The position numbers and the translations under genes were made by a program. The notes under the pieces are model-generated. The model was not told the DNA's origin. It did not search any database and saw only the letters and a list, made by a program, of their open reading frames with translations. Shown here piece after piece: positions 1,241 through 62,133 of a stretch of 64,000 nt of DNA. Numbering within the stretch: the first letter of the stretch is position 1; the number at the start of each line of letters is the position of its first letter. Origin of the DNA: Eledone cirrhosa (lineage: Eukaryota); NCBI GenBank assembly GCA_964016885.1, contig OZ024743.1, positions 221,216,001-221,280,000 on the forward strand, written 5' to 3'.

Positions 1241-4200
1241 CTTGTTGTAGTTGCTGTTGATGTGATGCTGTTGTAGTTGCTGTGTTGTTGTTGTTACTGT
1301 TGTGTGATGCTGTTGTAGTTGCTGTGTTGTTGTAGTTGCTGTTGATGTGATGCTGTTGTAGTTGCTGTGTTGTTGTTACTGTTGTGTGATGCTGTTGTTG
1401 TTGATGTGTTGTTGTTGTTACTGTTGATGTGATGCTGTTGTAGTTGCTGTGTTGTTGTTGTTACTGTTGTGTGATGCTGTTGTAGTTGCTGTGTTGTTGT
1501 TGTTACTGTTGTGTGATGCTGTTGTAGTTGCTGTGTTGTTGTTGTTACTGTTGTGTGATGCTGTTGTAGTTGCTGTGTTGTTGTTACTGTTGTGTGATGC
1601 TGTTGTTGTTGATGTGTTGTTGTTGTTACTGTTGATGTGATGCTGTTGTAGTTGCTGTGTTGTTGTTGTTACTGTTGTGTGATGCTCTTGTAGTTGCTGT
1701 GTTGTTGTTGTTACTGTTGATGTGATGCTGTTGTAGTTGCTGTGTTGTTGTTGTTACTGTTGTGTGATGCTGTTGTAGTTGCTGTGTTGTTGTTGTTACT
1801 GTTGTTGTGATGTTGTTGTAGTTGCTGTGTTGTTGTTACTGTTGTGTGATGCTGTTGTTGTTGTTACTGTTGATGTGATGTTGTTGTAGTTGCTGTGTTG
1901 TTGTAGTTGCTGTGTTGTTGTTGTTACTGTTGTGTGATGCTGTTGTAGTTGCTGTGTTGTTGTTGTTGTTACTGTTGATGTGATGTTGTTGTAGTTGCTG
2001 TGTTGTTGTTGTTACTGTTGATGTGATGTTGTTGTAGTTGCTGTGTTGTTGTTGTTACTGTTGATGTGATGTTGTAGTTGCTGTGTTGTTGTTGTTACTG
2101 TTGATGTGATGCTGTTGTAGTTGCTGTGTTGTTGTTGTTACTGTTGATGTGATGTTGTAGTTGCTGTGTTGTTGTTGTTGTTGTTACTGTTGATGTGATG
2201 CTGTTACTGCTGTTGGTGTTATTGTTGTTACTGTTGATGTGATGCTGTTGGTGTTGTCGTTGATGTTGTTGCTGCTGTTGATGTTGTTGTTGTTACTGTT
2301 GATGTGATGTTGTTGTAGTTGCTGTGTTGTTGTTGTTACTGTTGTTGTGATGTTGTTGTAGTTGCTGTGTTGTTGTTGTTACTGTTGTGTGATGCTGTTG
2401 TAGTTGCTGTGTTGTTGTTGTTGTTACTGTTGATGTGATGTTGTTGTAGTTGCTGTGTTGTTGTTGTTACTGTTGATGTGATGTTGTAGTTGCTGTGTTG
2501 TTGTTGTTACTGTTGATGTGATGTTGTAGTTGCTGTGTTGTTGTTGTTACTGTTGATGTGATGCTGTTGCTGCTGTTGGTGTTATTGTTGTTACTGTTGA
2601 TGTGATGCTGTTGGTGTTGTCGTTGATGTTGTTGCTGCTGTTGATGTTGTTGTTGTTACTGTTGATGTGATGTTGTTGCTGCTGTTGGTGTTGTTGTTGT
2701 TACTGTTGATGTGATGTTGTTGTTACTGTTGGTGTTGTTGTTGTTACTGTTGATGTGATGTTGTTGTTACTGTTGATGTGATGTTGTTGCTGCTGTGGTG
2801 TTGTTGTTGTTACTGTTGATGTGATGTTGTTGCTGCTGTTGGTGTTGTTGTTGTTACTGTTGATGTGATGTTGTTGTTACTGTTGGTGTTGTTGTTGTTA
2901 CTGTTGATGTGATGTTGTTACTGCTGTTGGTGTTGTTGTTGTTACTGTTGATGTGATGTTGTTGTTACTGTTTATGTGATGTTGTTACTGCTGTTGGTGT
3001 TGTTGTTGTTACTGTTGATGTGATGTTGTTGTTACTGTTGATGTGATGTTGTTACTGCTGTTGGTGTTATTGTTGTTACTGTTGATGTGATGTTGTTGCT
3101 GCTGTTGGTGTTGTTGTTGTTACTGTTGATGTGATGTTGTTGTTACTGTTGATGTGATGTTGTTGGTGTTGTTGGTGTTGTTGTTGTTGTTACTGTTGAT
3201 GTGATGTTGTTGTTACTGTTGGTGTTGTTGTTGTTACTGTTGATGTGATGTTGTTGCTGCTGTTGGTGTTGTTGTTGTTACTGTTGATGTGATGTTGTTA
3301 CTGCTGTTGGTGTTGTTGTTGTTACTGTTGATGTGATGTTGTTGTTACTGTTGATGTGTTGTTGTTACTGCTGTTGGTGTTGTTGTTGTTACTGTTGATG
3401 TGATGTTGTTGCTGCTGTTGGTGTTGTTGTTGTTAGTGTTGATGTGATGCTGTTGCTGCTGTTGGTGTTGTTGTTGTTGTTACTGTTGATGTGATGCTGT
3501 TGCTGCTGTTGATGTTGTTGTTGTTACTGTTGATGTGATGTTGTTGCTGCTGTTGGTGTTGTTGTTGTTACTGTTGATGTGATGCTGTTGCTGCTGTTGG
3601 TGTTGTTGTTGTTGTTACTGTTGATGTGATGCTGTTGCTGCTGTTGATGTTGTTGTTGTTACTGTTGATGTGATGTTGTTGGTGTTGTTGGTGTTGTTGG
3701 TGTTGTTGTTGTTACTGTTGATGTGATGTTGTTGCTGCTGTTGATGTTGTTGTTGTTACTGTTGATGTGATGTTGTTGGTGTTGTTGGTGTTGTTGGTGT
3801 TGTTGTTGTTACTGTTGATGTGATGTTGTTGGTGTTGTTGGTGTTGTTGTTGTTACTGTTGATGTGATGTTGTTGTTGTTGTTGGTGTTGTTGTTGTTAC
3901 TGTTGATGTGATGTTGTTGGTGTTGTTGGTGTTGTTGTTGTTACTGTTGATGTGATGTTGTTGGTGTTGTTGGTGTTGTTGTTGTTACTGTTGGTGTGAT
4001 GTTGTTGGTGTTGTTGGTGTTGTTGTTGTTACTGTTGATGGTGTTGTTGGTGTTGTTGTTGTTACTGTTGATGTGATGTTGTTGGTGTTGTTGGTGTTGT
4101 TGTTGTTACTGTTGATGTGATGTTGTTGGTGTTGTTGGTGTTGTTGTTGTTACTGTTGATGTGATGTTGTTGTTGTTGTTGGTGTTGTTGTTGTTACTGT

Positions 4201-7200
4201 TGATGTGATGTTGTTGGTGTTGTTGGTGTTGTTGTTGTTACTGTTGATGTGATGTTGTTGTTGTTGTTGGTGTTGTTGTTGTTACTGTTGATGTGATGTT
4301 GTTGGTGTTGTTGGTGTTGTTGTTGTTACTGTTGATGTGATGTTGTTGGTGTTGTTGGTGTTGTTGTTGTTACTGTTGGTGTGATGTTGTTGGTGTTGTT
4401 GGTGTTGTTGTTGTTACTGTTGATGTGATGTTGTTGGTGTTGTTGGTGTTGTTGTTGTTACTGTTGATGTGATGTTGTTGGTGTTGTTGGTGTTGTTGTT
4501 GTTACTGTTGATGTGATGTTGTTGGTGTTGTTGGTGTTGTTGTTGTTACTGTTGATGTGATGTTGTTGGTGTTGTTGGTGTTGTTGTTGTTACTGTTGAT
4601 GTGATGTTGTTGTTGTTGTTGGTGTTGTTGTTGTTACTGTTGATGTGATGTTGTTGGTGTTGTTGGTGTTGTTGTTGTTACTGTTGATGTGATGTTGTTG
4701 GTGTTGTTGGTGTTGTTGTTGTTACTGTTGATGTGATGTTGTTGGTGTTGTTGGTGTTGTTGTTGTTACTGTTGATGTGATGTTGTTGGTGTTGTTGGTG
4801 TTGTTGTTGTTACTGTTGGTGTGATGTTGTTACTGCTGTTGGTGTTGTTGTTGTTACTGTTGATGTGATGTTGTTGTTACTGTTGATGTGTTGTTGTTAC
4901 TGCTGTTGGTGTTGTTGTTGTTACTGTTGATGTGATGTTGTGGCTGCTGTTGGTGTTGTTGTTGTTACTGTTGATGTGATGCTGTTGCTGCTGTTGGTGT
5001 TGTTGTTGTTGTTACTGTTGATGTGATGCTGTTGTTGCTGTTGGTGTTGTTGTTGTTGTTGTTACTGTTGATGTGATGTTGTTGCTGCTGTTGGTGTTGT
5101 TGTTGTTACTGTTGATGTGATGTTGTTGCTGCAGTTGGTGTTGTTGTTGTTACTGTTGATGTGATGTTGTTGGTGTTGTTGGTGTTGTTGTTGTTACTGT
5201 TGATGTGATGTTGTTGGTGTTGTTGGTGTTGTTGTTGTTACTGTTGATGTGATGTTGTTGGTGTTGTTGGTGTTGTTGTTGTTACTGTTGGTGTGATGTT
5301 GTTGGTGTTGTTGGTGTTGTTGTTGTTACTGTTGATGTGATGTTGTTACTGCTGTTGGTGTTGTTGTTGTTACTGTTGATGTGATGTTGTTGTTACTGTT
5401 GGTGTTGTTGTTGTTACTGTTGATGTGATGTTGTTGTTACTGTTGATGTGATGCTGTTACTGATGTTGGTGTTGTTGTTGTTACTGTTGATGTGATGTTG
5501 TTGCTGCTGTTGGTGTTGTTGTTGTTACTGTTGATGTGATGTTGTTGTTACTGTTGATGTGATGCTGTTACTGCTGTTGGTGTTGTTGTTGTTACTGTTG
5601 ATGTGATGCTGTTACTGCTGTTGGTGTTGTTGTTGTTACTGTTGATGTGATGTTGTTGCTGCTGTTGGTGTTGTTGTTGTTACTGTTGGTGTGATGTTGT
5701 TGCTGCTGTTGGTGCTGTTGTTGTTACTGTTGATGTGATGTTGTTGGTGTTGTTGGTGTTGTTGTTGTTACTGTTGATGTGATGTTGTTGTTACTGTTGA
5801 TGTGATGTTGTTGTTACTGTTGATGTGATGTTGTTGCTGCTGTTGGTGTTGTTGTTGTTACTGTTGGTGTGATGTTGTTGCTGCTGTTGGTGTTGTTGTT
5901 GTTACTGTTGATGTGATGTTGTTGCTACTGTTGATGTGATGTTGTTGTTACTGTTGATGTGATGTTGTTGGTGTTGTTGGTGTTGTTGTTGTTACTGTTG
6001 ATGTGATGTTGTTGCTGCTGTTGGTGTTGTTGTTGTTACTGTTGTTGTGATGTTGTTACTGCTGTTGGTGTTGTTGTTGTTACTGTTGATGTGATGTTGT
6101 TACTGTTGGTGTTGTTGTTGTTACTGTTGATGTGATGTTGTTGCTGCTGTTGGTGTTGTTGTTGTTACTGTTGTTGTGATGTTGTTGCTGCTGTTGGTGT
6201 TGTTGTTGTTACTGTTGATGTGATGTTGTTGGTGTTGTTGGTGTTGTTGTTGTTACTGTTGATGTGATGTTGTTGTTACTGTTGATGTGATGTTGTTGTT
6301 ACTGTTGATGTGATGTTGTTGGTGTTGTTGGTGTTGTTGTTGTTACTGTTGATGTGATGTTGTTGTTACTGTTGATGTGATGTTGTTGTTACTGTTGATG
6401 TGATGTTGTTGGTGTTGTTGGTGTTGTTGTTGTTACTGTTGATGTGATGTTGTTGTTACTGTTGATGTGATGTTGTTGCTGCTGTTGGTGTTGTTGTTGT
6501 TACTGTTGGTGTGATGTTGTTGTTACTGTTGATGTGATGTTGTTGTTACTGTTGATGTGATGTTGTTGGTGTTGTTGGTGTTGTTGTTGTTACTGTTGAT
6601 GTGATGTTGTTGTTACTGTTGATGTGATGTTGTTGTTACTGTTGATGTGATGTTGTTGCTGCTGTTGGTGTTGTTGTTGTTACTGTTGATGTGATGTTGT
6701 TGCTACTGTTGATGTGATGTTGTTGTTACTGTTGATGTGATGTTGTTGGTGTTGTTGGTGTTGTTGTTGTTACTGTTGATGTGATGTTGTTGTTACTGTT
6801 GATGTGATGTTGTTGTTACTGTTGATGTGATGTTGTTGGTGTTGTTGGTGTTGTTGTTGTTACTGTTGATGTGATGTTGTTGTTACTGTTGATGTGATGT
6901 TGTTGTTACTGTTGATGTGATGTTGTTGCTGCTGTTGGTGTTGTTGTTGTTACTGTTGATGTGATGTTGTTGCTACTGTTGATGTGATGTTGTTGTTACT
7001 GTTGATGTGATGTTGTTGGTGTTGTTGGTGTTGTTGTTGTTACTGTTGATGTGATGTTGTTGTTACTGTTGATGTGATGTTGTTGCTGCTGTTGGTGTTG
7101 TTGTTGTTACTGTTGGTGTGATGTTGTTGCTGCTGTTGGTGTTGTTGTTGTTACTGTTGATGTGATGTTGTTGCTACTGTTGATGTGATGTTGTTGTTAC

Positions 7201-10200
7201 TGTTGATGTGATGTTGTTGGTGTTGTTGGTGTTGTTGTTGTTACTGTTGATGTGATGTTGTTACTGCTGTTGGTGTTGTTGTTGTTACTGTTGATGTGAT
7301 GTTGTTACTGTTGGTGTTGTTGTTGTTACTGTTGATGTGATGTTGTTGCTGCTGTTGGTGTTGTTGTTGTTACTGTTGTTGTGATGTTGTTGCTGCTGTT
7401 GGTGTTGTTGTTGTTACTGTTGATGTGATGTTGTTGCTGCTGTTGGTGTTGTTGTTGTTACTGTTGATGTGATGTTGTTGCTGCTGTTGGTGTTATTGTT
7501 GTTACTGTTGATGTGATGTTGTTGCTGCTGTTGGTGTTGTTGTTGTTACTGTTGATGTGATGTTGTTGCTGCTGTTGGTGTTGTTGTTGTTACTGTTGAT
7601 GTGATGTTGTTGCTGCTGTTGGTGTTGTTGTTGTTACTGTTGATGTGATGTTGTTGCTGCTGTTGGTGTTGTTGTTGTTACTGTTGATGTGATGTTGTTA
7701 CTGTTGGTGTTGTTGTTGTTACTGTTGATGTGATGTTGTTGCTGCTGTTGGTGTTGTTGTTGTTACTGTTGATGTGATGTTGTTGCTGCTGTTGGTGTTG
7801 TTGTTGTTACTGTTGATGTGATGTTGTTGCTGCTGTTGGTGTTGTTGTTGTTACTGTTGGTGTGATGTTGTTGCTGCTGTTGGTGTTGTTGTTGTTACTG
7901 TTGATGTGATGTTGTTGCTACTGTTGATGTGATGTTGTTGTTACTATTGATGTGATGTTGTTGGTGTTGTTGGTGTTGTTGTTGTTACTGTTGATGTGAT
8001 GTTGTTACTGCTGTTGGTGTTGTTGTTGTTACTGTTGATGTGATGTTGTTGTTACTGTTGATGTGATGCTGTTACTGCTGTTGGTGTTGTTGTTGTTACT
8101 GTTGATGTGATGTTGTTGCTGCTGTTGATGTTGTTGTTGTTACTGTTGATGTGATGTTGTTGGTGTTGTTGGTGTTGTTGGTGTTGTTGTTGTTACTGTT
8201 GATGTGATGTTGTTGGTGTTGTTGGTGTTGTTGTTGTTACTGTTGATGTGATGTTGTTGTTGCTGTTGGTGTTGTTGTTGTTACTGTTGATGTGATGTTG
8301 TTGCTGCTGTTGGTGTTGTTGTTGTTACTGTTGATGTGATGTTGTTGCTGCTGTTGGTGTTGTTGTTGTTACTGTTGATGTGATGTTGTTGTTGCTGTTG
8401 GTGTTGTTGTTGTTACTGTTGATGTGATGTTGTTGCTGCTGTTGGTGTTGTTGTTGTTACTGTTGATGTGATGTTGTTGCTGCTGTTGGTGTTGTTGTTG
8501 TTACTGTTGATGTGATGTTGTTGGTGTTGTTGGTGTTGTTGTTGTTACTGATGTTGGTGTTGTTGTTGTTACTGTTGATGTGATGTTGTTGCTGCTGTTG
8601 GTGTTGTTGTTGTTACTGTTGGTGTGATGTTGTTGCTGCTGTTGGTGTTGTTGTTGTTACTGTTGATGTGATGTTGTTGGTGTTGTTGGTGTTGTTGTTG
8701 TTACTGATGTTGGTGTTGTTGTTGTTACTGTTGATGTGATGTTGTTGCTGCTGTTGGTGTTGTTGTTGTTACTGTTGGTGTGATGTTGTTGCTGCTGTTG
8801 GTGTTGTTGTTGTTACTGTTGATGTGATGTTGTTGCTGCTGTTGGTGTTGTTGTTGTTACTGTTGATGTGATGTTGTTGCTGCAGTTGGTGTTGTTGTTG
8901 TTACTGTTGATGTGATGTTGTTGCTGCTGTTGGTGTTGTTGTTGTTACTGTTGATGTGATGTTGTTGTTGCTGTTGGTGTTGTTGTTGTTACTGTTGATG
9001 TGATGTTGTTGGTGTTGTTGGTGTTGTTGTTGTTACTGTTGGTGTGATGTTGTTGCTGCTGTTGGTGTTGTTGTTGTTACTGTTGATGTGATGTTGTTGT
9101 TGCTGTTGGTGTTGTTGTTGTTACTGTTGATGTGATGTTGTTGGTGTTGTTGGTGTTGTTGTTGTTACTGTTGGTGTGATGTTGTTGCTGCTGTTGGTGT
9201 TGTTGTTGTTACTGTTGATGTGATGTTGTTGGTGTTGTTGGTGTTGTTGTTGTTACTGTTGATGTGATGTTGTTGGTGTTGTTGGTGTTGTTGTTGTTAC
9301 TGTTGTTGTGATGTTGTTGCTGCTGTTGGTGTTGTTGTTGTTACTGTTGATGTGATGTTGTTACTGTTGGTGTTGTTGTTGTTACTGTTGATGTGATGTT
9401 GTTGCTGCTGTTGGTGTTGTTGTTGTTACTGTTGATGTGATGTTGTTGCTGCTGTTGGTGTTGTTGTTACTGTTGATGTGATGTTGTTGCTGCTGTTGGT
9501 GTTGTTGTTGTTACTGTTGATGTGATGTTGCTGCTGTTGGTGTTGTTGTTGTTACTGTTGGTGTGATGTTGTTGCTGCTGTTGGTGTTGTTGTTGTTACT
9601 GTTGATGTGATGTTGTTGGTGTTGTTGGTGTTGTTGTTGTTGTTACTGTTGATGTGATGTTGTTGCTGCTGTTGGTGTTGTTGTTGTTACTGTTGATGTG
9701 ATGTTGTTGCTGCTGTTGGTGTTGTTGTTGTTACTGTTGGTGTGATGTTGCTGCTGTTGGTGTTGTTGTTGTTACTGTTGGTGTGATGTTGTTGCTGCTG
9801 TTGGTGTTGTTGTTGTTACTGTTGATGTGATGTTGTTGGTGTTGTTGGTGTTGTTGTTGTTACTGTTGATGTGATGTTGTTGCTGCTGTTGGTGTTGTTG
9901 TTGTTACTGTTGATGTGATGTTGTTGCTGCTGTTGGTGTTGTTGTTGTTACTGTTGATGTGATGTTGTTGCTGCTGTTGGTGTTGTTGTTGTTACTGTTG
10001 GTGTGATGTTGTTGCTGCTGTTGGTGTTGTTGTTGTTACTGTTGATGTGATGTTGTTGCTGCTGTTGGTGTTGTTGTTGTTACTGTTGGTGTGATGTTGT
10101 TGCTGCTGTTGGTGTTGTTGTTGTTACTGTTGATGTGATGTTGTTGCTGCTGTTGGTGTTGTTGTTGTTACTGTTGGTGTGATGTTGTTGCTGCTGTTGG

Positions 10201-12455
10201 TGTTGTTGTTGTTACTGTTGATGTGATGTTGTTGGTGTTGTTGGTGTTGTTGTTGTTGTTACTGTTGATGTGATGTTGTTGCTGCTGTTGGTGTTGTTGT
10301 TGTTACTGTTGATGTGATGTTGTTGCTGCTGTTGGTGTTGTTGTTGTTACTGTTGATGTGATGTTGTTGCTGCTGTTGGTGTTGTTGTTGTTACTGTTGG
10401 TGTGATGTTGTTGCTGCTGTTGGTGTTGTTGTTGTTACTGTTGGTGTGATGTTGTTGCTGCTGTTGGTGTTGTTGTTGTTACTGTTGGTGTGATGTTGTT
10501 GCTGCTGTTGGTGTTGTTGTTGTTGTTACTGTTGATGTGATGTTGTTGCTGCTGTTGGTGTTGTTGTTGTTGTTACTGTTGATGTGATGTTGTTGCTGCT
10601 GTTGGTGTTGTTGTTGTTATTGTTGGTGTGATGTTGTTGCTGCTGTTGGTGTTGTTGTTGTTACTGTTGATGTGATGTTGTTGGTGTTGTTGGTGTTGTT
10701 GTTGTTACTGTTGATGTGATGTTGTTGGTGTTGTTGGTGTTGTTGTTGTTACTGTTGATGTGATGTTGTTGGTGTTGTTGGTGTTGTTGTTGTTACTGTT
10801 GATGTGATGTTGTTGCTGCTGTTGGTGTTGTTGTTGTTATTGTTGGTGTGATGTTGTTGCTGCTGTTGGTGTTGTTGTTGTTACTGTTGATGTGATGTTG
10901 TTGGTGTTGTTGGTGTTGTTGTTGTTACTGTTGATGTGATGTTGTTGGTGTTGTTGGTGTTGTTGTTGTTACTGTTGATGTGATGTTGTTGGTGTTGTTG
11001 GTGTTGTTGTTGTTACTGTTGATGTGATGTTGTTGCTGCTGTTGGTGTTGTTGTTGTTATTGTTGGTGTGATGTTGTTGCTGCTGTTGGTGTTGTTGTTG
11101 TTATTGTTGGTGTGATGTTGTTGCTGCTGTTGGTGTTGTTGTTGTTACTGTTGATGTGATGTTGTTGGTGTTGTTGGTGTTGTTGTTGTTACTGTTGATG
11201 TGATGTTGTTGGTGTTGTTGGTGTTGTTGTTGTTACTGTTGATGTGATGTTGTTGGTGTTGTTGGTGTTGTTGTTGTTGTTACTGTTGATGTGATGTTGT
11301 TGCTGCTGTTGGTGTTGTTGTTGTTATTGTTGGTGTGATGTTGTTGCTGCTGTTGGTGTTGTTGTTGTTACTGTTGATGTGATGTTGTTGGTGTTGTTGG
11401 TGTTGTTGTTGTTACTGTTGATGTGATGTTGTTGGTGTTGTTGGTGTTGTTGTTGTTACTGTTGATGTGATGTTGTTGGTGTTGTTGGTGTTGTTGTTGT
11501 TACTGTTGATGTGATGTTGTTGCTGCTGTTGGTGTTGTTGTTGTTATTGTTGGTGTGATGTTGTTGCTGCTGTTGGTGTTGTTGTTGTTACTGTTGATGT
11601 GATGTTGTTGCTGCTGTTGGTGTTGTTGTTGTTACTGTTGGTGTGATGTTGTTGCTGCTGTTGGTGTTGTTGTTGTTACTGTTGATGTGATGTTGTTACT
11701 GCTGTTGGTGTTGTTACTGTTGATGTGATGTTGTTGCTGCTGTTGGTGTTGTTGTTGTTACTGTTGATGTGATGTTGTTGGTGTTGTTGGTGTTGTTGTT
11801 GTTGTTACTGTTGATGTGATGTTGTTGCTGCTGTTGGTGTTGTTGTTGTTACTGTTGATGTGATGTTGTTACTGTTGGTGTTGTTGTTGTTACTGTTGAT
11901 GTGATGTTGTTGCTGCTGTTGGTGTTGTTGTTGTTACTGTTGATGTGATGTTGTTACTGTTGGTGTTGTTGTTGTTACTGTTGATGTGATGTTGTTGCTG
12001 CTGTTGGTGTTGTTGTTGTTACTGTTGATGTGATGTTGTTGCTGCTGTTGGTGTTGTTGTTGTTACTGTTGGTGTGATGTTGTTGCTGCTGTTGGTGTTG
12101 TTGTTGTTACTGTTGATGTGATGTTGTTACTGCTGTTGGTGTTGTTGTTGTTACTGTTGATGTGATGTTGTTGCTGCTGTTGATGTTGTTGTTGTTACTG
12201 TTGATGTGATGTTGTTGGTGTTGTTGGTGTTGTTGTTGTTGCTGCTGTTGGTGTTGTTGTTGTTACTGTTGATGTGATGTTGTTGCTGCTGTTGATGTTG
12301 TTGTTGTTACTGTTGATGTGATGCTGTTGCTGCTGTTGGTGTTGTTGTTGTTACTGTTGATGTGATATTGTTGCTGCTGTTGGTGTTGTTGTTGTTACTG
12401 TTGATGTGATGCTGTTGCTGCTGTTGGTGTTGTTGTTGTTACTGTTGGTGTTGTT
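1241..12455. repeat. ~11.2 kb GTT-derived minisatellite; main unit 44 bp, with 42 bp and 23 bp variants
   Basis: Unit GTTACTGTTGATGTGATGTTGTTGCTGCTGTTGGTGTTGTTGTT repeated in tandem with regional variants. Confidence 0.97.
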
Positions 12456-13025
12456 GATGGTAGTGGTGGTCGTGGTGGTGGTGGTAGTACCGGTGGTGGT
12501 GGTGATGGTTCACTGGTAGTAGGGTAATTATAGTGTTGATGGTGGTGATGGTGATGGTGGCGGGGGTGTTGTTGATGGTAGTGGTGGTGGTAGTGACGGT
12601 GGTGGTGGTGATGGTTCACTGGTAGTAGGGTAATTATAGTGTTGATGGTGGTGATGGTGGTGTGGTGACGGTGTTGTTGATGGTAGTGGTGGTCGTTGTG
12701 GTAGTGGTGGTAGTGACGGTGGTGGTGGAGGTGATGGTGGTGGTGATGGCGGTGGGGGTAACGGTGGTGTTGATGGTAGTGGTGGTAGTGCTGATGGTGG
12801 TGACGGTGGTGGTGGTGATGGTGTAGGGGGTAGGGGTGGTAGTGGTGGTGATGGTGGTGGTGATGGTGGTGATGGTGGTGATGGTGGTGGTATTGGTGGC
12901 GGTGGTGGTGGTGGTGGTGGTGGTAGTGGTGATGGTGGTGGTGATGGTGGTGATGGTGGTGGTGGTGGTGATGGTGGTGATGATTGGCGTGGTGGTGATG
13001 ATGATGGGGGTGAAGGTGATGATGT
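12456..13025. repeat. (GGT/GAT)n low-complexity tract with an internal ~105 bp duplication
   Basis: GATGGTTCACTGGTAGTAGGGTAATTATAGTGTTGATGG occurs at ~12503 and ~12610. Confidence 0.9.
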
Positions 13026-14038: not shown

Positions 14039-14184
14039 GTGAAAAGATTCAGGTACGGATCTAGCAGTCGAAACGGCCGGAGCACTGCCGTCGGGGTCCT
14101 TAATCTTTTCATATTACCCACTCTACTACCTCATGTAGAACTCTGGTGGGTTATGGTCTAGCTGGTTTTTACCACACCCTATCA
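14039..14184 (+). mobile_element. (TA)n-embedded hairpin+tail element, degenerate copy A
   Basis: GTCGAAACGGCCGGAGC..GTCGGGGTCC..ATTACCCACTCTACTACCTC..TTATGGTC..TTACCACA matches the copy at 17057; left arm partly deleted; TA runs on both sides. Confidence 0.8.
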
Positions 14185-14263: not shown

Positions 14264-14598
14264 TATACTTGGGGAGGGTCATATTTGTGTAATAGTATTG
14301 CCAGAATTAATAACAGAACACACTCACTGTTTGGTTGGTTTTCGCTTCTGTGTCTTTTATATCGGTTAATTTAATTTTTTTTTATTCGGTCCTCAATGTT
14401 ACCATTGACTGACCAACGGTCAAAAATACAGATATAATATAGACACAAACACATATATATATTCTAACAAAGTTCTTTCGTTGGACATCTGCAACATCGT
14501 CAGTGGTGCTATTATGTTTCCTCCCGTTGTATTGTATGCCTACGCCATCTTTATTTAGTATGTTTATTTATTTATTTTTATTTTATTTTTTTTTTTTT

Positions 14599-14760
14599 TC
14601 AGTACTATACGAACATGCCAGACAACAACACAACGGTAACATAGACAACATAGAAATTAGAATAATATCTAAACATAGAAATGACCCAGCAGATAGGAAA
14701 ATCAGAGAGGCCAGCCAAATAGAACTTAGAAGGCCAAGGCTAAACAGAAAAAATGAATAG
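14599..14760 (+). pseudogene. Penelope-type GIY-YIG endonuclease C-terminal fragment
   Basis: SVLYEHARQQHNGNIDNIEIRIISKHRNDPADRKIREASQIELRRPRLNRKNE* fits the PLE pattern H-x4-H...R-x-I-x-EA-x2-I-x4-P-x-LNR. Confidence 0.75.
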
Positions 14761-15060
14761 AATAACAACAACACCAAAACAAACAATACTGACCTAAGAG
14801 AAGTATAAATAAATAAATTCATACACAAGCACAATAACAACAAACACATATAAACACACACTAGTAAACTAAGATAGAATACAATAACCAATACACAGTC
14901 ACCCAAACACGAACACACATCAAACACTATACACACACGCAACGCATGCGCAGAGAAGACAAAAAATATATATAAATAAAAATAAAAATAAATAAATAAG
15001 TAAATAAACAAACTAAATAAAGATGGCGTAGGCATACAATACAACGGGAGGAAACATAAT

Positions 15061-15105
15061 AGCACCACTGAGGATGTTGCAGATGTGCAACGAAAGAACT
15101 TTGTT
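15061..15105 (+). ncRNA. Hammerhead-ribozyme-like core in pLTR (degenerate; mirror copy at 14466-14510 on the minus strand)
   Basis: CTGAGGA-t-GTTGC agatgt GCAAC-GAAA; mirror arm reads CTGACGA; stems I and III not clearly intact. Confidence 0.5.
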
Positions 15106-15352
15106 AGACTATATATATGTATTTGTGTCTATATTACATCTGTATTTTTGACCGTTGGTCAGTCAATGGTACATTGAGGACCGAATACAAAAAAAATTAA
15201 ATTAATCGATATAAAAGACACAGAAGCGAAAACCAACCAAACAGTGAGTGTGTTCTGTTATTAATTCTGGCAATACTATTATACAAATATGACCCTCCCC
15301 AAGTATAACAATATTTGTTTCGACACACGATTTCATATCAAAAACCTCTCAA

Positions 15353-15408
<56 letters not shown>

Positions 15409-17056: not shown

Positions 17057-17233
17057 GGAACCAGTAAGACCCCGACAGCTGAGCTCAAGCCGTTTCGACG
17101 GACAATTAGCCGTCGAAACGGCTTGAGCTCAGCTGTCGGGGTCTTACTGGTTCCTATTACCCACTCTACTACCTCAAGTATTGAGTACTTTGGCGCGTTA
17201 TGGTCCACCTGGTTCCTTACCACATTTCCTTCG

Positions 17234-17236
<3 letters not shown>
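17057..17236 (+). mobile_element. (TA)n-embedded hairpin+tail element, copy B (reference copy)
   Basis: Perfect 45 bp arms (17057-17101 and 17110-17154), 8 nt loop, ~82 bp tail, (TA)n on both sides. Confidence 0.92.
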
Positions 17237-21285: not shown

Positions 21286-21359
21286 TATATATATACAATA
21301 TATATATATATATATATATATTAAATTTTAATAAAATAGATGTTCTTTTGATCAATTAC

Positions 21360-21412
21360 ATTTTATTATACATATTTCGGATGTACAACAGTACGTCTTC
21401 ATCAGACAAAAT
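21360..21412 (-). ncRNA. Mirror hammerhead motif in the left arm
   Basis: Reverse complement reads ATTTTGT-CTGATGA-AGACGTAC tgtt GTACATCC-GAAA-TATGTATA-ATAAAAT. Confidence 0.55.
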
Positions 21413-21495
21413 ATAATGATACATGACATACCCTGAGATGTTAAATGGTTAAGATTTAACCATTTAACATCTCAGGGTATGTCATGTATCATTAT

Positions 21496-21548
21496 ATTTT
21501 ATCTGATGAGGACGTACTGTTGTACATCCGAAATATGTATAATAAAAT
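21496..21548 (+). ncRNA. Minimal type I hammerhead ribozyme motif
   Basis: ATTTTAT-CTGATGA-GGACGTAC tgtt GTACATCC-GAAA-t atgt a-TA-ATAAAAT: 7 bp stem I, stem II with 1 mismatch, very short stem III. Confidence 0.7.
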
Positions 21549-21717
21549 GTAATTGATCAAAAGAACATCTATTTTATTAATATTTATATTTTAATATTAA
21601 TAACTCCGGAAAATTATTTTACCGTAGAGTGCTTCCAATCTACTGTAAAACTCATTCTTTGACATACTCATTGAATATCGTTTAACACTTTAATATATAT
21701 ATACATATATATATATA

Positions 21718-21906
21718 TAACAAAGAAAGTGTGGTAAGGAACCAGGGGACCATAACGGACAAGAGTATTCGATATTTAGGGTAGTAGAGTGGGTAATAGG
21801 AGTCAGGACCCCGATGGCTGAGCTCCGGCTGATTCGACAGCTAGATTCGTTCGAATTTAGCTGTCGAAACGACTGGAGCTCAGCCGTCGGGGTCCTGACT
21901 CTTTTG

Positions 21907-22346: not shown

Positions 22347-22445
22347 ATAATATAGAGCAGTTTTATAAATAAATGTTGACATACCCTATTGGGAGCTCCC
22401 GGATAGTATCCGGGAGCTTCCAATAGTAATGATTGCATTGACCGC

Positions 22446-22662
22446 TGGTCAGTCAATGGCAACATTGAGGACCGAATAAATTAAATTAACCGATATAAAA
22501 GACACAGAAGCGAAAAGCGAAAACCAAACAAACAGTGAGTGTGTTCTGTTATTAATTCTGGCAATATTACACAAATATGACCCTCCCCAAGTATAACAAT
22601 ATTTGTTTCGACACATGATTTCATATAAAAAACCTCGCAAAACTAATTCATCGCCGTTATAT
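22446..22662 (+). mobile_element. 3' fragment of the Penelope-like family seen at 14263-15356
   Basis: Near identical to 15156-15356 (GGTCAGTCAATGG..GACCCTCCCCAAGTATAACAATATTTGTTTCGACAC..AAAAC). Confidence 0.85.
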
Positions 22663-33949: not shown

Positions 33950-36120
33950 CTTAAAGGGCAGACCAAAAGCTAACCAACTGAAAATCACCAGGCTCAGATG
34001 GTGTGCAAGGGTATTGGATTAAAAATATAACATCCCTCCACTCGAAACTGACAACCATGTTCAATGGCTGCTTGATGTCGGGTGAGGTACCAGAGTGGTT
34101 GGCAAAAGGTACCACAGTTCTGGTAATGAAAGACCGAATCAAGGGTAATTATGTTGCCAACTATAGACCTATCACATGTCTGTCCGTAAGGTGGAAACTG
34201 TTAACAATAATTGTGTCTGAGGAAATCTACAATCCCCTCCACATAAAAAAACTTGTTACCAAACAGTTACTTATTGATAAGATGGTAAAGAGGAGACACA
34301 ATGTTCTTGCCATGGGATGGATAGATTACAAAAAGACATTCGACATGGTACCTCATTCTTGGATAACCAAAAGCCTATAGATCTTCAAGGTGGCAGATAA
34401 CATCAGACAGTTGTTGAGCAAAAGTATGAAGTCCTGGGAAACAGAGTTAACATCGGGTGGAGAATCCTTGGGAGGCGTGAACATCAAGAGAGGTATCTTC
34501 CAGGGAGATAGTTTGTCCCCTTTGCTGTTTGTCTTTGCCCTGATACCTCTGACTGTTATATTGCGAAAAGTGAGAGCAGGATACAAGTTGGGAAAAGGAG
34601 AGCTTACCATCAACCACCTCCTCTTCATGGACGATCTTAAACTCTTTGGGAAGAGTGAGAAGGATTTGGATGTACTTGTTGACACTGTCCGTATTTTCAG
34701 CAATGATATATGTATGGAATTTCGTATTAATAAGTGTGGAGTCCTAGTGATGAAGAGGGGTAAATTGAGCAGAAGCAACGGAATCCAGGTACCAACAGGT
34801 GAGATGATAAAGGAAATTGACAATGAAGAGGGATACAAATATTTTGGTGTTCTGGAGGCATATGACATCAAGAACAAAAAAATTAAGGAATTCATAAGAT
34901 CTGAGTACATAAGGAGAGTAAGGAGCGTCTTAAAATCACATCTAAATAGTAGGAATGTCATAAGTGCAGTGAATTCACGAGCTGTGTCTATTATTAGGTA
35001 CAGAGCGGGAATTCTGAAATGGAATGTTGATGAACAAAAAGAAATGGTAGGAAGACAAGGAGGCTATTGACTATCTACAACATGTTCCACAAGAGGAGTG
35101 ATGTCGATAGACTCTACTTAAGGAGATCTGAAGGTGGAAGAGGTCTTATCAGCATAGAAGACTGTGTTCAGATGGAGAAAAAGAACCTGCACAAATTTGT
35201 GACTGACAGTAGGGAGCCAATGCTCAAAATTGTACTGAAGGAGAAGACAATAAACCAGTGGATATCCAAGGAGGAAATAACAAGGAGGAAGAGCAGCCTT
35301 CATGAAAAGTCCCTTCATAGTACCTTCATTGAGAAAACTGAATTCAGAGATCCACAGACATGGAATTGGTTGAAAAGAGGAGACCTTAAAAAAACTACAG
35401 AAGAAATGCTAATGGCTGCGCAAGAGCAGGCCCTCAAAACACCATATTTACAAGGAGGAGGCTAGCCCACTGTGCAGGATCTGTGGAGAGAGAGAGGAGA
35501 CTGTGGCTCACATTGTATCCGAGTGTAAACACCTAGCCCAGACTCACTATAAAGGCTGGAGACATGATGTGATGGGCAGGGTGATCCACTGGCACCTATG
35601 CAAAGTAAACAATTTACCACATTCTGAGAAGTGGTATGAGCATAAGCCAGAGTCGGTGATAGAAAACGATCAAGAGAAGGTGCTGTGGGATTTTAGGATA
35701 CAGACGGACAAGAAACTGGAACACTATAGACCTGACCTGGTGGTTTTGGACAAGGAAAAAAGATCGTGCCTGATTGTGGATGTGGCCTGCCCATTCGACA
35801 CGAGAGTGCAAGAGAAGGAGAGGGAGAAAATTAACCGATACCAGGACTTAAAGTGGGAGGTAAAAAGGATTTGGAACTGCCATGAGGTCAAAGTGGTCCC
35901 GATTGTCATAGGCGCACTAGGTACTATCTCAAGGAGTTTCCAGGGTTTGTTAAAGAAAATTGACCACGCCCGGCTTTTTGGAACACTTCAAAAGGCATGC
36001 TTGCTGGGAACAGTAAGAACCCTCCGATACGTCCTGAATATCTGAGGCTGCAGGTAGTGGCTTGATATTCATTTCAACAAACTTTCCAGTTAACTAACAT
36101 CAATGACTGAGACTCAAAGA
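33950..36120 (+). mobile_element. R4/Dong-clade non-LTR retrotransposon (RT + CCHC + RLE), 5'-truncated and frameshifted
   Basis: KSPGSDG, NYRPITCL, WIDYKKTFDMVPH, GIFQGDSLSP, LFMDD, CRIC..H..C, RHD, WDF..TD..RPD..D..P, K..RY, IGALG; ends in (TAA)n. Confidence 0.93.
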
Positions 36121-36146
36121 ATAATAATAATAATAATAATAGTAAT

Positions 36147-36215
36147 GAATTCTTTATTGGCCACAAGGCCTGACATCAAGAAAAACATTACAGACGGCAT
36201 AGGACGGTACGATGT
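36147..36215 (-). mobile_element. Very short 3' end fragment of a Tx1-like LINE
   Basis: TCTTTATTGGCCACAAGG..ATAGGACGGTAC resembles the 3' terminus at 36264-36340; lies between TAA runs. Confidence 0.6.
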
Positions 36216-36216
36216 G

Positions 36217-36253
<37 letters not shown>

Positions 36254-36508
36254 TAATAATAATGCTTTCTTTATTAACCACAAGCGTTTACATAAAGTAG
36301 ACATTAAGGACAGTACAGGACAATATAGGACGGTACAAATGGGCATTGTACAAAAAACAGAGGATGTAATAAAAAATAACAATGAAAAATTCCCCAATAG
36401 AGGGGAGACTTCCGAGGGACATTTATGGAGAAAGCCCATTAAAAGGCCACAGTGAACTTGACCACCAGGGCAAGTGCCCTCTCCCAGTTTTCCACCTTTA
36501 ATTTACAG

Positions 36509-38708
36509 TCAGATACTCAGAGTAGGCCCATTCACACAGGCCATACTTGCTTCTCTCACCCATCTTTCAACAAAATGCTGGGAAGAGAGCACTTCCCTCT
36601 CTACCCTGATTTTCCTTTTCAAATGAAATTTGAAAAAGTTAATCAGGGCATCACCGAAGGGGTAAGTGCTCGTCTTCAGCCCTTTCAAACGTGCCCACCA
36701 TACTATATCTTTCGCAATGGCCACCAGACTGATAAAAACTTCCTGCCCTTCCCGGCTAAAGGAAGAGGGCGGGGCAATCCTCATGATGGACTCAGCTGAT
36801 AGCCGGATCCGCCCTACACGTGACAGCAGGTGTTCGACATAAACCCACAAGTCAGCAATGCTCGGACACTGGATGAGTGCGTGCAGGACGGTTTCGTCGC
36901 CCTGCGCGCATCTCGGACATTCCCGGCTGACGGCACCTCCATGCCTGTAGAGTTTATCCCGAACTGGCAAAGCTCCTCGGTAGCACTGCCAGGCCAGGGA
37001 TTTCTGGAAGTTGTCCATAGGCCCCGGCCCGAAAGTCCTTCCGAAGAGATTGGCTAGTTGATTTTCGTCGACGCCTCGAGTTTCTCCAAGTACGTCGTCG
37101 CTCTTCCCCTCCACTAATCCTCTATAGAACGCCAAAGTGGAGCTTCCACCGATCACATTGCCCGATTGGTCGAGGGCTGTGAGCGCCTGAAGACATTCCA
37201 GTCTCCAAGCGCTCCCTCTCGGTCTTCGCTTGACCCAGGACTGCAGCTCCGTCAAGGAGACGAGCTGGGGAAAGACGTGTCTAGCAAACGGCGACCACAC
37301 CTGATCACCGTCGAGGAAGAGGTGGAGATGTGGTAGCCTGAGCACGTGTCTGCGTATCATCAGCCACGGCATGCCAAGCCCTCCACGTTACGGGTGTTGA
37401 CAGCATATGGACCGCCTGACCATCGGAGCGCGACCCTTCCACAAAAAGCGAAAGAGCAAACGCTCCAGCGCAGTCAGGCGGGGATTAGGACAAGGTACGA
37501 CGGTCAGGCGGTAGTAGATGACGGATGCGATGTACGCATTCGCCACCTCCGCTCGACCTTTCAGGGATAGCTTCCTCTCCGCCCATTTCTGGGTGAGAGA
37601 AGCCACCCTGCTCGTCACCTCGTCCCAGTTTTTGTCCGTCTGGAGATCCGGACCGAACCAGACACCTAGCAATTTAACCGGTTCGTTCGTCCAGCACCCG
37701 ACGACGCTGTTGGACGGCATGGACCTGCCTCTCCAGGTGCCGAGCTGCAGGACCACTGACATTTCCTGGTTGATCATTGCTCTTGTCACCGCTTCGTATT
37801 CTCTTAGTGTAGTGCCGATCGCCTCGATGTGTTTGGGGTTCGACACCACTACGGTGACATCGTCGGCATTGGCTGATAAGATCTTCCGCATCCTAGTTCG
37901 CGCGGGATCCCCCTCAACGTCTCCAGTTTGAGCAGTAATGGCTCGAGAGTCAATACGTACAAGAGGGACGATAGGGGACATCCTTGGCGGACCGAGCGCA
38001 TGATGTTGAACGGTTCCAAAAGGTGACCGTTCACTCTCACCACAGAGCAGATATCGCTGTTCATGGCAGCGATCCAGCCCCAGAAGACGGGCCCAAAGCC
38101 AGCCGCCCTCACGACTGCCGCTAGGTAACGATGGTCGACCTTATCGAAAGCTTTCGACTGATCTAAATTGATCAAGGACCCACCCGTGCCAGGTTCCCTA
38201 GCTACCCTCTCTACGATGTATCGCATGAGGTGGAGGTTGTCGTGGATGGATCTGTCGGGAATGGCGCCACTCCCACCAGACTACCAACGACATGCGCCAA
38301 TCTCTTTGCTAGCACCTTGGCCAAAATCTTGAACTCTGTGTTTAGCAGAGTTATGGGCCTAAAATTATCTATGTTAGCCCCCTTGTTCGGATCCTTTCTC
38401 AGCAGCTCCACATCTCCTCGGCTCACAGAGCTGGGAATTCTCATGTTCTGTTGCCAATTGCAGTAGACGTCCGCCAAGAGGTCTCAGAACAAGTCTGGAA
38501 TCTGTACGTAAAGTTCATAGGGCAGACCATCCAAACCAGGCGATTTACGCCTTGTGCACCAAGTCATTGCCCGTGCTTCGGAGATTCTGATCTCGCTGAT
38601 GACCACTACATCTATGTTTAGTGACCTGAGGTCGTTGAGCAGGTGGCCCTGCTTCCATGAAGACTTCAAGCCACGCACATTTATGCTGCCTATTCTGAGT
38701 GTGGTCAT
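36509..38708 (-). pseudogene. Tx1-like ORF2 (APE start, RT, zf-RVT), disrupted
   Basis: MTTLRIGSINVRGL, KSPGLDGLPYELY, NFRPITLLNTEFKILAK, LDQSKAFD, VRQGCPLS, ADDVTV, CPRC..ETVLHALIQC. Confidence 0.92.
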
Positions 38709-38741
38709 GTTGAAATGGAGTGGAAAAATGGGAAAGACCAC

Positions 38742-49917: not shown

Positions 49918-49920
<3 letters not shown>

Positions 49921-50103
49921 CGAAGGAAATGTGGTAAGGAACCAGGTGTACCATAACGCACCAACGTACTCAATACTTAGGGTAGTAGAGTGGTTAATAG
50001 GAACGAGTAGGACCCCGTCGGCTGAGCTCAAGCCGTTTCGACGGCTAATTCTGGAATTAGCCGTCGAAACGGCTTGAGCTCAGCCGTTGGGGTCCTACTC
50101 GTT

Positions 50104-50105
<2 letters not shown>
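49918..50105 (-). mobile_element. (TA)n-embedded hairpin+tail element, copy D
   Basis: ~51 bp arms around a CTGG loop (50000-50105); tail matches copy B. Confidence 0.92.
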
Positions 50106-50174
<69 letters not shown>

Positions 50175-50913
50175 ATGTCAAAAGATCGGGATATAGATAA
50201 AGTGAAAAAGAGAGATGAAGAGATAGATAGATAGAGAGAGTGAGTGAGAAAAAGCGTGAGAGAGTCTGAACGGATAGAGAGGGGAAAAGATAATATAGAT
50301 GGATAGATGTATCCATTGAGCGTTCGATGTATGGATGAATGGATAGAAGGTTTGATAATTTGATAATGATATAATATGATATATAGATAATATGTAAGGC
50401 AGGCATAAGGGAGACAGGTAAACATACAGGTAAGTGTGCTAGAGCAGCTCATAGATAGGTCGGGAAGTAGATGGTGAGTGGATAAGGCAGGTAGGCTGAG
50501 AGCTATATAGAAACGTAGATGTGTATGCGGGAAAGAAGATTATATATTATATATTGAAATAGTTAGATTCAGAGATTATATATAAATTTAGTTGATAGGA
50601 AATTAAAGTGGTATGTCACAAACGCATTCACTCATTCATATGTAATTACACACATATAATTCGACATGCGCATCTGCACACTATTGCACACACTTATGTG
50701 CATATATATATAATAATATATATATATTTCGTTTCTGAATTTGTTTAGCAAGATTCATTATCTGAAATCGTGTGTTGAAACCGATATTGTTATACAACCA
50801 ACCAACCAGAAATTTATAAATTTGTAAATTTATAAATATATATTAAATTAAATTGAAGTGAAAGCAACTGGTGCGTGTGTTTCTTATTGGCAACATGACC
50901 CTCCCAAAGTATG

Positions 50914-50953
<40 letters not shown>

Positions 50954-50955
<2 letters not shown>

Positions 50956-51104
50956 AAAAAGCTCAAGCCGTTTCGACGGCTTTTTCTGTTGAAACAGCTT
51001 GAGCTCTGCCGCCGGGGTCATACTTTTTCCTATTACCCACTCTACTACCTCAAGTATTGAGTAATCTGGTGCGTTATGGTCCATCTGGTTCCTTACCACA
51101 ATTC

Positions 51105-51108
<4 letters not shown>
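50954..51108 (+). mobile_element. (TA)n-embedded hairpin+tail element, copy E
   Basis: Partially deleted left arm; tail matches copy B. Confidence 0.88.
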
Positions 51109-51170
<62 letters not shown>

Positions 51171-51173
<3 letters not shown>

Positions 51174-51286
51174 CGAAGGAAATGTGGTAAGGAACCAGGT
51201 GGACCATAACGCACCAAAGTACTCAATACTTGAGGTAGTAGAGTGGGTAATAGGAACCAGTAAGACCCCCAGGGGTCTTACTGGTT

Positions 51287-51288
<2 letters not shown>
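51171..51288 (-). mobile_element. (TA)n-embedded hairpin+tail element, copy F (collapsed hairpin)
   Basis: Tail nearly identical to copy B; hairpin reduced to GGAACCAGTAAGACCCC-CA-GGGGTCTTACTGGTTCC. Confidence 0.92.
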
Positions 51289-60842: not shown

Positions 60843-61021
60843 GAATAAAGAAGCTGTGGTAATGTGCCAAGTGGACTATATCGCACTAGAGTACTCGATA
60901 CTTAGGGTAGTAGAGTGGGTAATATGAAAAGAGTCAGGACACCGACGGCTGAGCTGCGGCCGTTTCGGATCTAGCTGTCGAAACGACCGGAGCTCAGTCG
61001 TAGGGGTCCTGACTCTTTTCA
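60843..61021 (-). mobile_element. (TA)n-embedded hairpin+tail element, copy G
   Basis: GGTAGTAGAGTGGGTAAT, then arms TGAAAAGAGTCAGGAC..GTCCTGACTCTTTTCA. Confidence 0.87.

Positions 61022-61786: not shown

Positions 61787-62133
<347 letters not shown>

What the first reader, a model, noticed from the sequence alone, without database searches (positions are those of the whole stretch)
17057..17236. Eight-copy family of hairpin+tail elements found only inside (TA)n, with arms that co-vary within each copy
Seen: copies at 14039, 17057, 21718, 49918, 50954, 51171, 60843 and 61827 all have (TA)n | fold-back hairpin | ~80 bp tail | (TA)n, in either orientation. The outer stem differs between copies but stays complementary within a copy: GGAACCAGTAAGAC/GTCTTACTGGTTCC (B, F), GGAACGAGTAGGAC/GTCCTACTCGTTCC (D), TGAAAAGAGTCAGGAC/GTCCTGACTCTTTTCA (G), GGAAAAC.TTAGAC/GTCTAACAGTTTTCC (H). 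The inverted repeat covers only one end, so this is not a TIR MITE, and I see no poly(A) or clear Pol III head. Inference: a non-autonomous, microsatellite-targeted element whose second arm is regenerated by fold-back synthesis at insertion, or whose RNA hairpin is structurally conserved. The architecture matches the two Penelope-type remnants in this window (inverted pLTR lacking the tail).
Basis: partly seen in the sequence, partly recalled or inferred. Interest (0 to 1): 0.8.

Follow-up and report, generated by a model that had tools for sequence, protein, structure and literature searches.

The report
Hairpin footprints of Penelope twin copying
These hairpins are the shortest insertions of a young Penelope-like jumping gene that inserts into TA repeats, and their junctions suggest it likely copies one RNA twice, from two start points, to the RNA's capped or ribozyme-cut end, a long-unsettled step for this class.

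Summary
All eight copies are real. They are not a separate non-autonomous family. Arm and tail match (100%, 98.7%) the unit junction of a young 3.54-kb Penelope-like element (PLE) with an intact reverse transcriptase/endonuclease frame, Hydra-clade motifs and a hammerhead ribozyme. Inverted copy plus tail in (TA)n is a known PLE layout, and this scan met similar hairpins in three other windows from other genomes.

The junctions add mechanism:
- Insertions pair one tail-less end with one tail end 80 nt further on (14 of 14 long two-armed, 37 of 40 short).
- Both ends abut TAT in the parent.
- Both arms share private variants.
- Short arms stop at two fixed points. At -57, an initiator-like A, 30 of 50 junctions carry an extra cap-like G, 11 of them on both arms. 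At -16, the predicted ribozyme cut, extra letters are mostly A/T (137 hairpins match this pattern; 2 match a shifted control).

Best reading: two target-primed cDNAs run off the 5' end of one sense RNA and are joined head to head. Fold-back fits worse. No RNA data were available.

The parts
17057..17234 (+). Copy B: minimal head-to-head insertion of the youngest subfamily (tail-less arm + tail-bearing arm), between (TA)n runs
   Evidence: L002 is this copy
17057..17101 (-). Tail-less arm of B: parent positions -44..0 (0 = tail-less end), inverted
17102..17103 (.). Two letters at the head-to-head joint of B that neither arm explains
17104..17154 (+). Tail-bearing arm of B, parent -50..0: 3' half of the hammerhead (stem II 3' strand, GAAA, stem III with palindromic loop, GUC, stem I 3' strand); predicted cut between 17137 and 17138
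17155..17234 (+). 80-nt tail = parent +1..+80, upstream of the first ATG (+174); both ends are followed by TAT in the parent
14040..14183 (+). Copy A, old subfamily (about 80% to parent), tail-less arm only about 15 nt
21720..21905 (-). Copy C, old subfamily (81%), small deletion at the arm/tail border
49920..50105 (-). Copy D (93%), arms reaching about -51 and -55
50954..51109 (+). Copy E (90%), deletion inside the tail-less arm
51173..51288 (-). Copy F (99%): both arms stop at -16, the predicted ribozyme cleavage site, with a 2-nt spacer
60845..61021 (-). Copy G, old subfamily (81%)
61829..62021 (-). Copy H (86%): tail-bearing arm reaches -57 and is preceded by G

Best explanation
The hairpin+tail copies are the shortest insertions of an autonomous Penelope-like retroelement with Hydra-clade motifs, likely made when two target-primed cDNAs start 80 nt apart on one sense RNA, run off its 5' end and are joined head to head.

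Shown: parent identity; (TA)n targets; one tail-less (0) and one tail (+80) end per insertion; TAT after both ends in the parent; both arms from one template sequence; arm stops piled at -57/-61 and at -16; an extra G at -57.

Inferred: the endonuclease nicks both strands of the self-complementary (TA)n. Each 3' end pairs with UAU at site 0 or +80 and primes. Transcription starts in the pseudo-LTR at initiator-like A-57 (and probably A-61), so priming in the 5' pseudo-LTR gives 57-nt and 137-nt run-off cDNAs whose extra C copies the cap. A minority of templates are hammerhead-cut RNAs starting at G-16. The two cDNA ends are joined nearly blunt, by end joining or an end-to-end template jump, often with a few bases trimmed. 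Priming in the 3' pseudo-LTR gives the long inverted and tandem copies.
For: Parent: tandem arrays of a 3542-bp unit with a 784-codon open frame; arm 100% and tail 98.7% identical to copy B. The RT search scored 150 hits at 97% or better, many in frames of 770-800 codons. Motifs LRWR, DKT, YRDD, CxCx5C, CxxC and CxH are present; DKG is absent and only one Cys lies in the GIY-YIG stretch. These match the Hydra definition in PMC8557442 section 11.

One of each end: 14 of 14 long two-armed insertions among 20 loci examined (the others had one arm, an unresolved end or an internal junction). Also 37 of 40 hairpins chosen only by their centre, the other 3 having a broken or deleted arm, none with two tails; and 14 of 15 at -16.

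One template: over 6831 sites covered three times in 12 insertions, 80 minority alleles are shared by all three segments and all 28 differences are private. Arm-to-arm distance is below the nearest other locus in 11 of 14.

Boundary: both arms lie within -61 in 25 of 25 young mini-hairpins. Summed contig depth falls about 6-fold across this point.

Cap-like G: 830 hairpins have both arms at -57 or slightly beyond. Of the first 50, 30 carry G at -58 on at least one arm and 11 on both, whereas read-through copies have T there in 73 of 74. Single-letter spacers are C/G 18: A/T 3 at -57 but 1: 13 at -16 (Fisher p = 5e-6). Untemplated 5' G is attributed to cap copying for L1/SVA (PMC3287187 passage).

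Ribozyme: the lowest-energy fold of the parent gives the three-way hammerhead junction. 137 hairpins match the -16 pattern, and 33 of the first 50 have a spacer of nothing or one A/T. The pattern shifted 3 nt inward gives 2; the outward one gives 25, mostly with one arm still at -16.

Long arms starting at -54/-56 or -17 exist (L300, L081, L301). In vitro, a Poseidon PLE nicks and extends both strands and starts at two internal sites that bound the tail (PMC11167929 parts 1-2).
Against: No RNA data: the start site, the cap and the cleavage are read from DNA only.

Single-ended copies joined straight to (TA)n give a weaker signal: G in 14, C in 11 and A in 4 of 79 distinct places among the first 100 rows (my hand count). 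About 11% of read depth at -58 has C, so a C-bearing subfamily exists and some single C/G spacers could be templated. The extra base might also depend on the last templated base rather than on a cap.

Most mini-hairpin arms stop at -50..-56, not exactly at -57, which needs trimming or stalling. Spacer tallies rest on the first 50 of 830 and of 137 hits. The inward control contains CpG sites that can decay. Zero-spacer -16 junctions can also be read as -17/-15.

The hammerhead fold is no more stable than shuffles (z = -0.03). In vitro, ribozyme cleavage was dispensable and no RNA-seq reads ended at the cut in the anole element. In 11 of the 14 long two-armed insertions the long arm starts further upstream than -61 of the preceding unit, so read-through or circular RNAs must also serve as templates. 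The site test found no derived allele shared by only two segments, so it cannot by itself separate twin priming from fold-back.
Confidence: 0.72

Rival explanations
1. Fold-back (self-priming): one cDNA is made, folds on itself and copies itself, and a later endonuclease cut leaves the tail on one side. PMC3846280 proposes self-priming on an antisense template.
For: Arms are near-identical and share all template variants. Some centres are short palindromes such as TCGA or AAATTT. Uneven arm lengths could come from later deletion at the hairpin centre.
Against: Centres with 0 or 1 nt between perfectly paired arms are the commonest class, too tight for a priming loop (established knowledge). The extra G sits on either arm or both. 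Both ends show TAT microhomology to the target. The tail-less arm holds ORF sequence missing from the tail arm in 6 of 14 long insertions. Stops at a sense-strand initiator-like A and at the sense ribozyme cut point to a sense template.
Confidence: 0.12
2. Twin priming is right, but the short arms come from reverse-transcriptase stalling at the ribozyme's stem II/loop 2, or from later deletion, not from running off an RNA end.
For: The stop zone (-50..-61) lies inside predicted loop 2. Stops are spread over about 12 nt. The single-ended G signal is weak.
Against: Sharp upper bound near -61. Base-specific extra G at -57, on both arms in 11 of 50, versus A/T at -16. Tandem derivatives also begin at -58/-60 (L298, L299).
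Confidence: 0.13
3. A self-propagating non-autonomous hairpin family (MITE- or SINE-like) whose RNA hairpin is kept by selection.
For: Uniform size and very high copy number (7247 exact tail-less ends of one subfamily, against 304 exact read-through junctions). For the oldest subfamilies (A, C, G types) I found no ORF-bearing parent. Non-autonomous tandem derivatives of this element do exist (L298).
Against: 25 of 25 young hairpins have different centres. Lengths run continuously from 17-nt arms to multi-unit arrays with the same two ends. ORF-bearing long copies carry the B- and D-type ends.
Confidence: 0.03

Closest known systems
Hydra-clade EN+ Penelope-like elements (Craig et al. 2021, PMC8557442; includes Hydra-1_Obim of Octopus bimaculoides)
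   Same: Single ORF with C-terminal GIY-YIG-type endonuclease; RW(K/R), DKT, CxCX5C, CxxC and CxH motifs, no CCHH; sense hammerhead at the 3' end; (TA)n targets; an inverted 5'-truncated copy is noted for Penelope-13_HM.
   Different: Unit of 3.54 kb (listed Hydra families are 1.1-3.0 kb); 80-nt tail rather than the 30-40 bp given for PLEs; U3-A8 ribozyme core and a sequence unlike the listed Hydra-1_Obim ribozyme; about 10^5 copies by extrapolation, mostly mini-hairpins.
Canonical PLE insertion layout: partial tandem, adjacent inverted 5'-truncated copy, tail at one end (PMC8557442 Fig. 2 legend; PMC3846280; PMC2377424)
   Same: The same layout at every length; transcription start inside the pseudo-LTR is known for Drosophila virilis Penelope.
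   Different: Here most insertions are the minimal form, with fixed stops at a putative start site and at the ribozyme cut. Those papers invoke endonuclease resolution or antisense self-priming.
Poseidon_Ac in vitro system (Frangieh et al. 2024, PMC11167929)
   Same: Two internal initiation sites bounding the tail just downstream of the hammerhead; both strands nicked and extended; AT-rich target.
   Different: Priming there was described as non-homologous, and here both sites abut TAT. No strand difference in start site was seen there, and here each insertion uses one of each. No sign of in vivo ribozyme cleavage was found there, and here there is a pile-up at the cut site.
Closely spaced opposite-strand minimal hammerheads and the U3-A8 variant in PLEs (Cervera and de la Pena 2014, PMC4209133)
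   Same: U3-A8 core, palindromic loop III, opposite-strand pairs attributed to truncated PLEs.
   Different: The hairpins here hold only the 3' half of the ribozyme; the 5' core (-100..-94) lies upstream of where they stop.
L1 twin priming and cap-derived 5' G (cap G: PMC3287187 passage; twin priming recalled)
   Same: Both target nicks prime on one RNA; an untemplated G marks run-off at a capped 5' end.
   Different: In L1 the two cDNAs copy mostly separate parts and the second site varies (recalled). Here both sites are fixed and the same stretch is copied twice.

Membership tests
EN+ Penelope-like element | Single ORF with RT and GIY-YIG endonuclease | tested here: met
   784-codon frame with FDI, YRDD and VIY..YIG. 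Pfam and PDB gave no direct hit. Atlas look-alikes at 0.96-0.99 include clusters with GIY-YIG and RVT_1 members; one listed homologue carries PF00078.
EN+ Penelope-like element | Tandem/partial-tandem units forming pseudo-LTRs, adjacent inverted truncated copy, tail at one end | tested here: met
EN+ Penelope-like element | Hammerhead motif in the pseudo-LTR | tested here: met
   Core UUGAGAA..GAAA..UC with stems I-III in the lowest-energy fold; activity not tested. The Rfam scan of the window listed no hammerhead among the 150 rows shown of 366.
EN+ Penelope-like element | RT placed with PLEs on a tree | not tested
Hydra clade | RWK and DKT in place of GxKF/Y and DKG | tested here: met
   LRWR and DKTGN present, DKG absent; 94 and 117 of 120 listed homologues share these motifs.
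Hydra clade | CxCX5C linker; CCHH absent; CxxC and CxH near the C end | tested here: met
   definition
Hydra clade | Insertion into (TA)n | tested here: met
   53 of 59 ends against 9.8% background
Hydra clade | Generally short (<3 kb) | tested here: not met
   The unit is 3542 bp; the paper gives this as a tendency, with one listed family at 3045 bp.
Neptune/Nematis clades | CX2-5CxxC linker and CCHH motif in the endonuclease | tested here: not met
   Linker is CxCx5C; one Cys in the GIY-YIG stretch.
MITE / non-autonomous self-copying hairpin family | Terminal inverted repeats at both ends; copies share internal structure by descent | tested here: not met
   The repeat covers one end only; 25 of 25 centres differ.
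Non-LTR retrozyme | Short tandem units each with a whole hammerhead | tested here: not met
   The window hairpins hold half a ribozyme and are not tandem; a 299-bp tandem derivative elsewhere (L298) does fit.

The most novel reading that the evidence does not exclude
This genome holds a natural record, in thousands of junctions, of how Penelope-like elements integrate. Both nicks prime at two fixed sites on a single capped sense RNA, always one site each, and a fraction of templates are ribozyme-cut in vivo. That would replace antisense self-priming as the origin of inverted pseudo-LTRs and tails, give in vivo evidence that a PLE hammerhead cleaves, and let start sites be read from DNA. Tandem units may come from ribozyme-made circles (lower odds, about 0.3).
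Probability: 0.6. Interest if true: 0.78.

Novelty: new member of a known kind. Interest (0 to 1): 0.6.

Why it matters
How PLEs, the sister group of telomerase, form their inverted repeats and tails, and whether their hammerheads act in vivo, are stated as open in PMC8557442, PMC3846280 and PMC11167929. A young family with intact ORFs and thousands of near-identical junctions makes both questions countable from the genome and testable in vitro. For annotation, such hairpins can be mistaken for MITEs, SINEs or microRNA precursors. At roughly 39 insertions per Mb in my sample they are also an abundant source of short perfect hairpins. The element class and layout themselves are known.

Tried and rejected
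Rfam scan: only microsatellite-driven microRNA matches below threshold among the rows shown. Pfam and PDB searches of the parent protein: no hits. A DNA search with the tail of copy F returned nothing because common words are skipped; uninformative. RNA runs: no RNA holder listed. Laying short-read contigs on a zero-spacer hairpin did not give a usable spacer spectrum. My first clade guess, Neptune, was dropped after the motif check. Arm-length asymmetry alone was not taken as proof against fold-back, since central deletions could cause it. An apparent pair of two tail-less ends (L090) looks like an inverted duplication of one site with its flanks. The test of whether the short arm follows the upstream or downstream unit had no power (8 vs 6 private changes). 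Empty alleles could not be tested: contigs break in (TA)n. A second start at -61 is only weakly supported, because C/G there can be templated. The look-ups of earlier findings by place and by sequence gave nothing relevant.

Full report
Observation. In 100 evenly spaced 10-kb stretches (80 from the four largest contigs) a BLAST found 59 element ends, about 39 insertions by my count. 53 of the 59 ends lie beside (TA)4, against 9.8% of random windows. That extrapolates roughly to 10^5 copies in the 3.0-Gb genome. In 14 of 18 parsed hairpins (21 given) the left arm matches its own right arm best.

Parent. Of 30 best genomic matches to the tail, several ran on into coding sequence. A search with that RT piece scored 150 of 37,897 candidates, all 97% or more identical, many in long open frames. 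Two tandem arrays gave the unit: 3542 bp with a 784-codon frame (717 aa from the first ATG). Copy B's arm (100%) and tail (98.7%) lie at the unit junction. The protein has LRWR, DKT, YRDD, CxCx5C, CxxC and CxH, and lacks DKG and CCHH. That is the Hydra-clade definition (PMC8557442, section 11 read). Its supplement lists Hydra-1_Obim from octopus with a different ribozyme (part 2 of 59 read). No tree was built. The junction folds as a type I hammerhead with a U3-A8 core and palindromic loop III. That variant, and close opposite-strand pairs attributed to truncated PLEs, are in PMC4209133 (part 1 of 4 read).

Two ends, one of each. Set 0 at the tail-less end; the tail end is +80. In the parent both are followed by TAT, matching the target. 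Among 20 long loci, 14 had two resolved arms, and all 14 paired a 0 end with a +80 end; the long arm was tail-less in 6 and tail-bearing in 8. Among 40 hairpins chosen only by their centre, 37 were one of each and 3 had a broken or deleted arm; none had two tails. At -16 it was 14 of 15. PMC11167929 (parts 1-2 of 4 read) showed in vitro that a Poseidon element nicks and extends both strands and starts at two internal sites bounding the tail.

One template. Arms within an insertion differ less than from the nearest other locus in 11 of 14 cases. At 6831 sites covered by short arm, upstream unit and downstream unit in 12 insertions, all three share 80 minority alleles and all 28 differences are private. 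This explains the co-variation without selection on the hairpin. It also shows tandem units within an insertion come from one sequence, which fits a reused or circular monomer or a very young tandem source.

Why so short. Of the first 29 distinct young insertions on contig C1, 25 are mini-hairpins. All have both arms within -61, nearly blunt joints and different centres. Position -57 is the A of TTAGT and -61 the A of TCATT, initiator-like motifs (consensus recalled). A transcription start inside the pseudo-LTR is known for Drosophila Penelope (PMC2377424 passages). Genome-wide, 830 hairpins have both arms at -57 or slightly beyond. In the first 50, 30 have an extra G on the sense strand of at least one arm and 11 on both. 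Read-through copies have T there in 73 of 74, duplicates between overlapping loci not fully removed. Forty of the 50 were fetched. Many belong to the youngest subfamily, whose read-through copies have T, and the G falls on either arm. Untemplated 5' G is attributed to copying of the cap in L1/SVA (PMC3287187 passage). Against this, single-ended copies show G in only 14 and C in 11 of 79 places (hand count). A C-bearing subfamily makes up about 11% of read depth at -58. Most arms end a few bases short of -57.

Ribozyme cut. Window copy F has both arms ending at -16, the predicted cleavage site. The genome holds 137 hairpins matching that pattern, about 2% of the 7247 exact tail-less ends; 33 of the first 50 have no spacer or one A/T. 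A pattern shifted 3 nt inward finds 2 and the outward one 25, mostly with one arm still at -16. Single spacers are C/G 18: A/T 3 at -57 and 1: 13 at -16 (p = 5e-6), as expected for a capped versus an uncapped end. Long copies starting at -54, -56 or -17 also exist. The in vitro paper found cleavage dispensable and no reads ending at the cut.

Mechanism. I infer twin target-primed synthesis on one sense RNA, one nick at each site, helped by 3-nt pairing. Priming in the 5' pseudo-LTR runs off after 57 and 137 nt and gives the hairpin; priming in the 3' pseudo-LTR gives long copies. The two cDNA ends are joined nearly blunt. Fold-back, proposed on an antisense template in PMC3846280 (passages), fits poorly with 0-1 nt centres, a G on both arms and sense-strand stop points, but DNA alone does not exclude it.

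Novelty. The class, the layout, the (TA)n bias and octopus Hydra elements are in print; PMC13282606 (passages) lists recently active Penelope-like families in Octopus vulgaris without such detail. My eight paper searches (mostly listings only) turned up no report of cap-like G at PLE inverted junctions, of arm stops at the ribozyme cut, or of the one-of-each rule. Subscription papers and Repbase were not searchable. Of the retrozyme preprint I saw only the abstract and outline; its supplements are closed. Three earlier notes of this scan describe similar hairpins in other genomes as ordinary truncated PLE copies; I did not check them. Verdict: a new member of a known kind, with junction evidence that bears on an open mechanism.

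Noticed in passing
L298 (G000:C2:356029300-356033300): 299-bp tandem array (six whole units and two partial ones) of an internally deleted unit with a whole, loop-shortened hammerhead, starting at -58 and ending at +80 in (TA)n: a retrozyme-like derivative of this PLE, as the preprint 10.64898/2026.07.22.740005 proposes.
   Followed up: partly
L299:348-1074: Head-to-head insertion whose tail arm repeats a -60..+196 unit twice with the same joint; suggests a small circular RNA or repeated end-to-end jumps.
   Followed up: partly
window 21322-21705: A second hairpin+tail family in (TA)n with about 130-bp arms and a canonical CTGATGA hammerhead core; likely another PLE family.
   Followed up: no
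window 14268-15355, 22386-22650, 50736-50915: A third family: 283-bp inverted repeats around a short endonuclease-like frame, with a tail on one side, plus two further fragments.
   Followed up: no
window 33982-36263: Broken non-LTR element resembling the R4/Dong clade (recalled motifs), followed by an (ATA)n run.
   Followed up: no
window 36509-40398, minus strand: Broken L1/Tx1-like element with ORF1- and ORF2-like pieces (assignment from recalled motifs).
   Followed up: no
window 1242-12456: 11-kb array of a 44-bp unit, about 255 copies.
   Followed up: no
window 51025-51258: Copies E and F sit tail to tail in one (TA)n run and mimic a microRNA precursor in Rfam, below threshold. New copies often land in the flank of older ones (L004, L070, L071, L074, L078).
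   Followed up: partly
L064, G000:C1 near 91.489-91.490 Mb: At the 5' end of the tandem array a 55-bp piece of the ORF is repeated more than 20 times.
   Followed up: no
L123, L089, L088, L086, L083: Other related PLE families at 40-53% amino-acid identity are common in the random sample.
   Followed up: no
window 21107, 22666, 32964, 41858, 43691, 46558, 57661, 63274: A dispersed repeat of about 190 bp with many copies, SINE-like.
   Followed up: no
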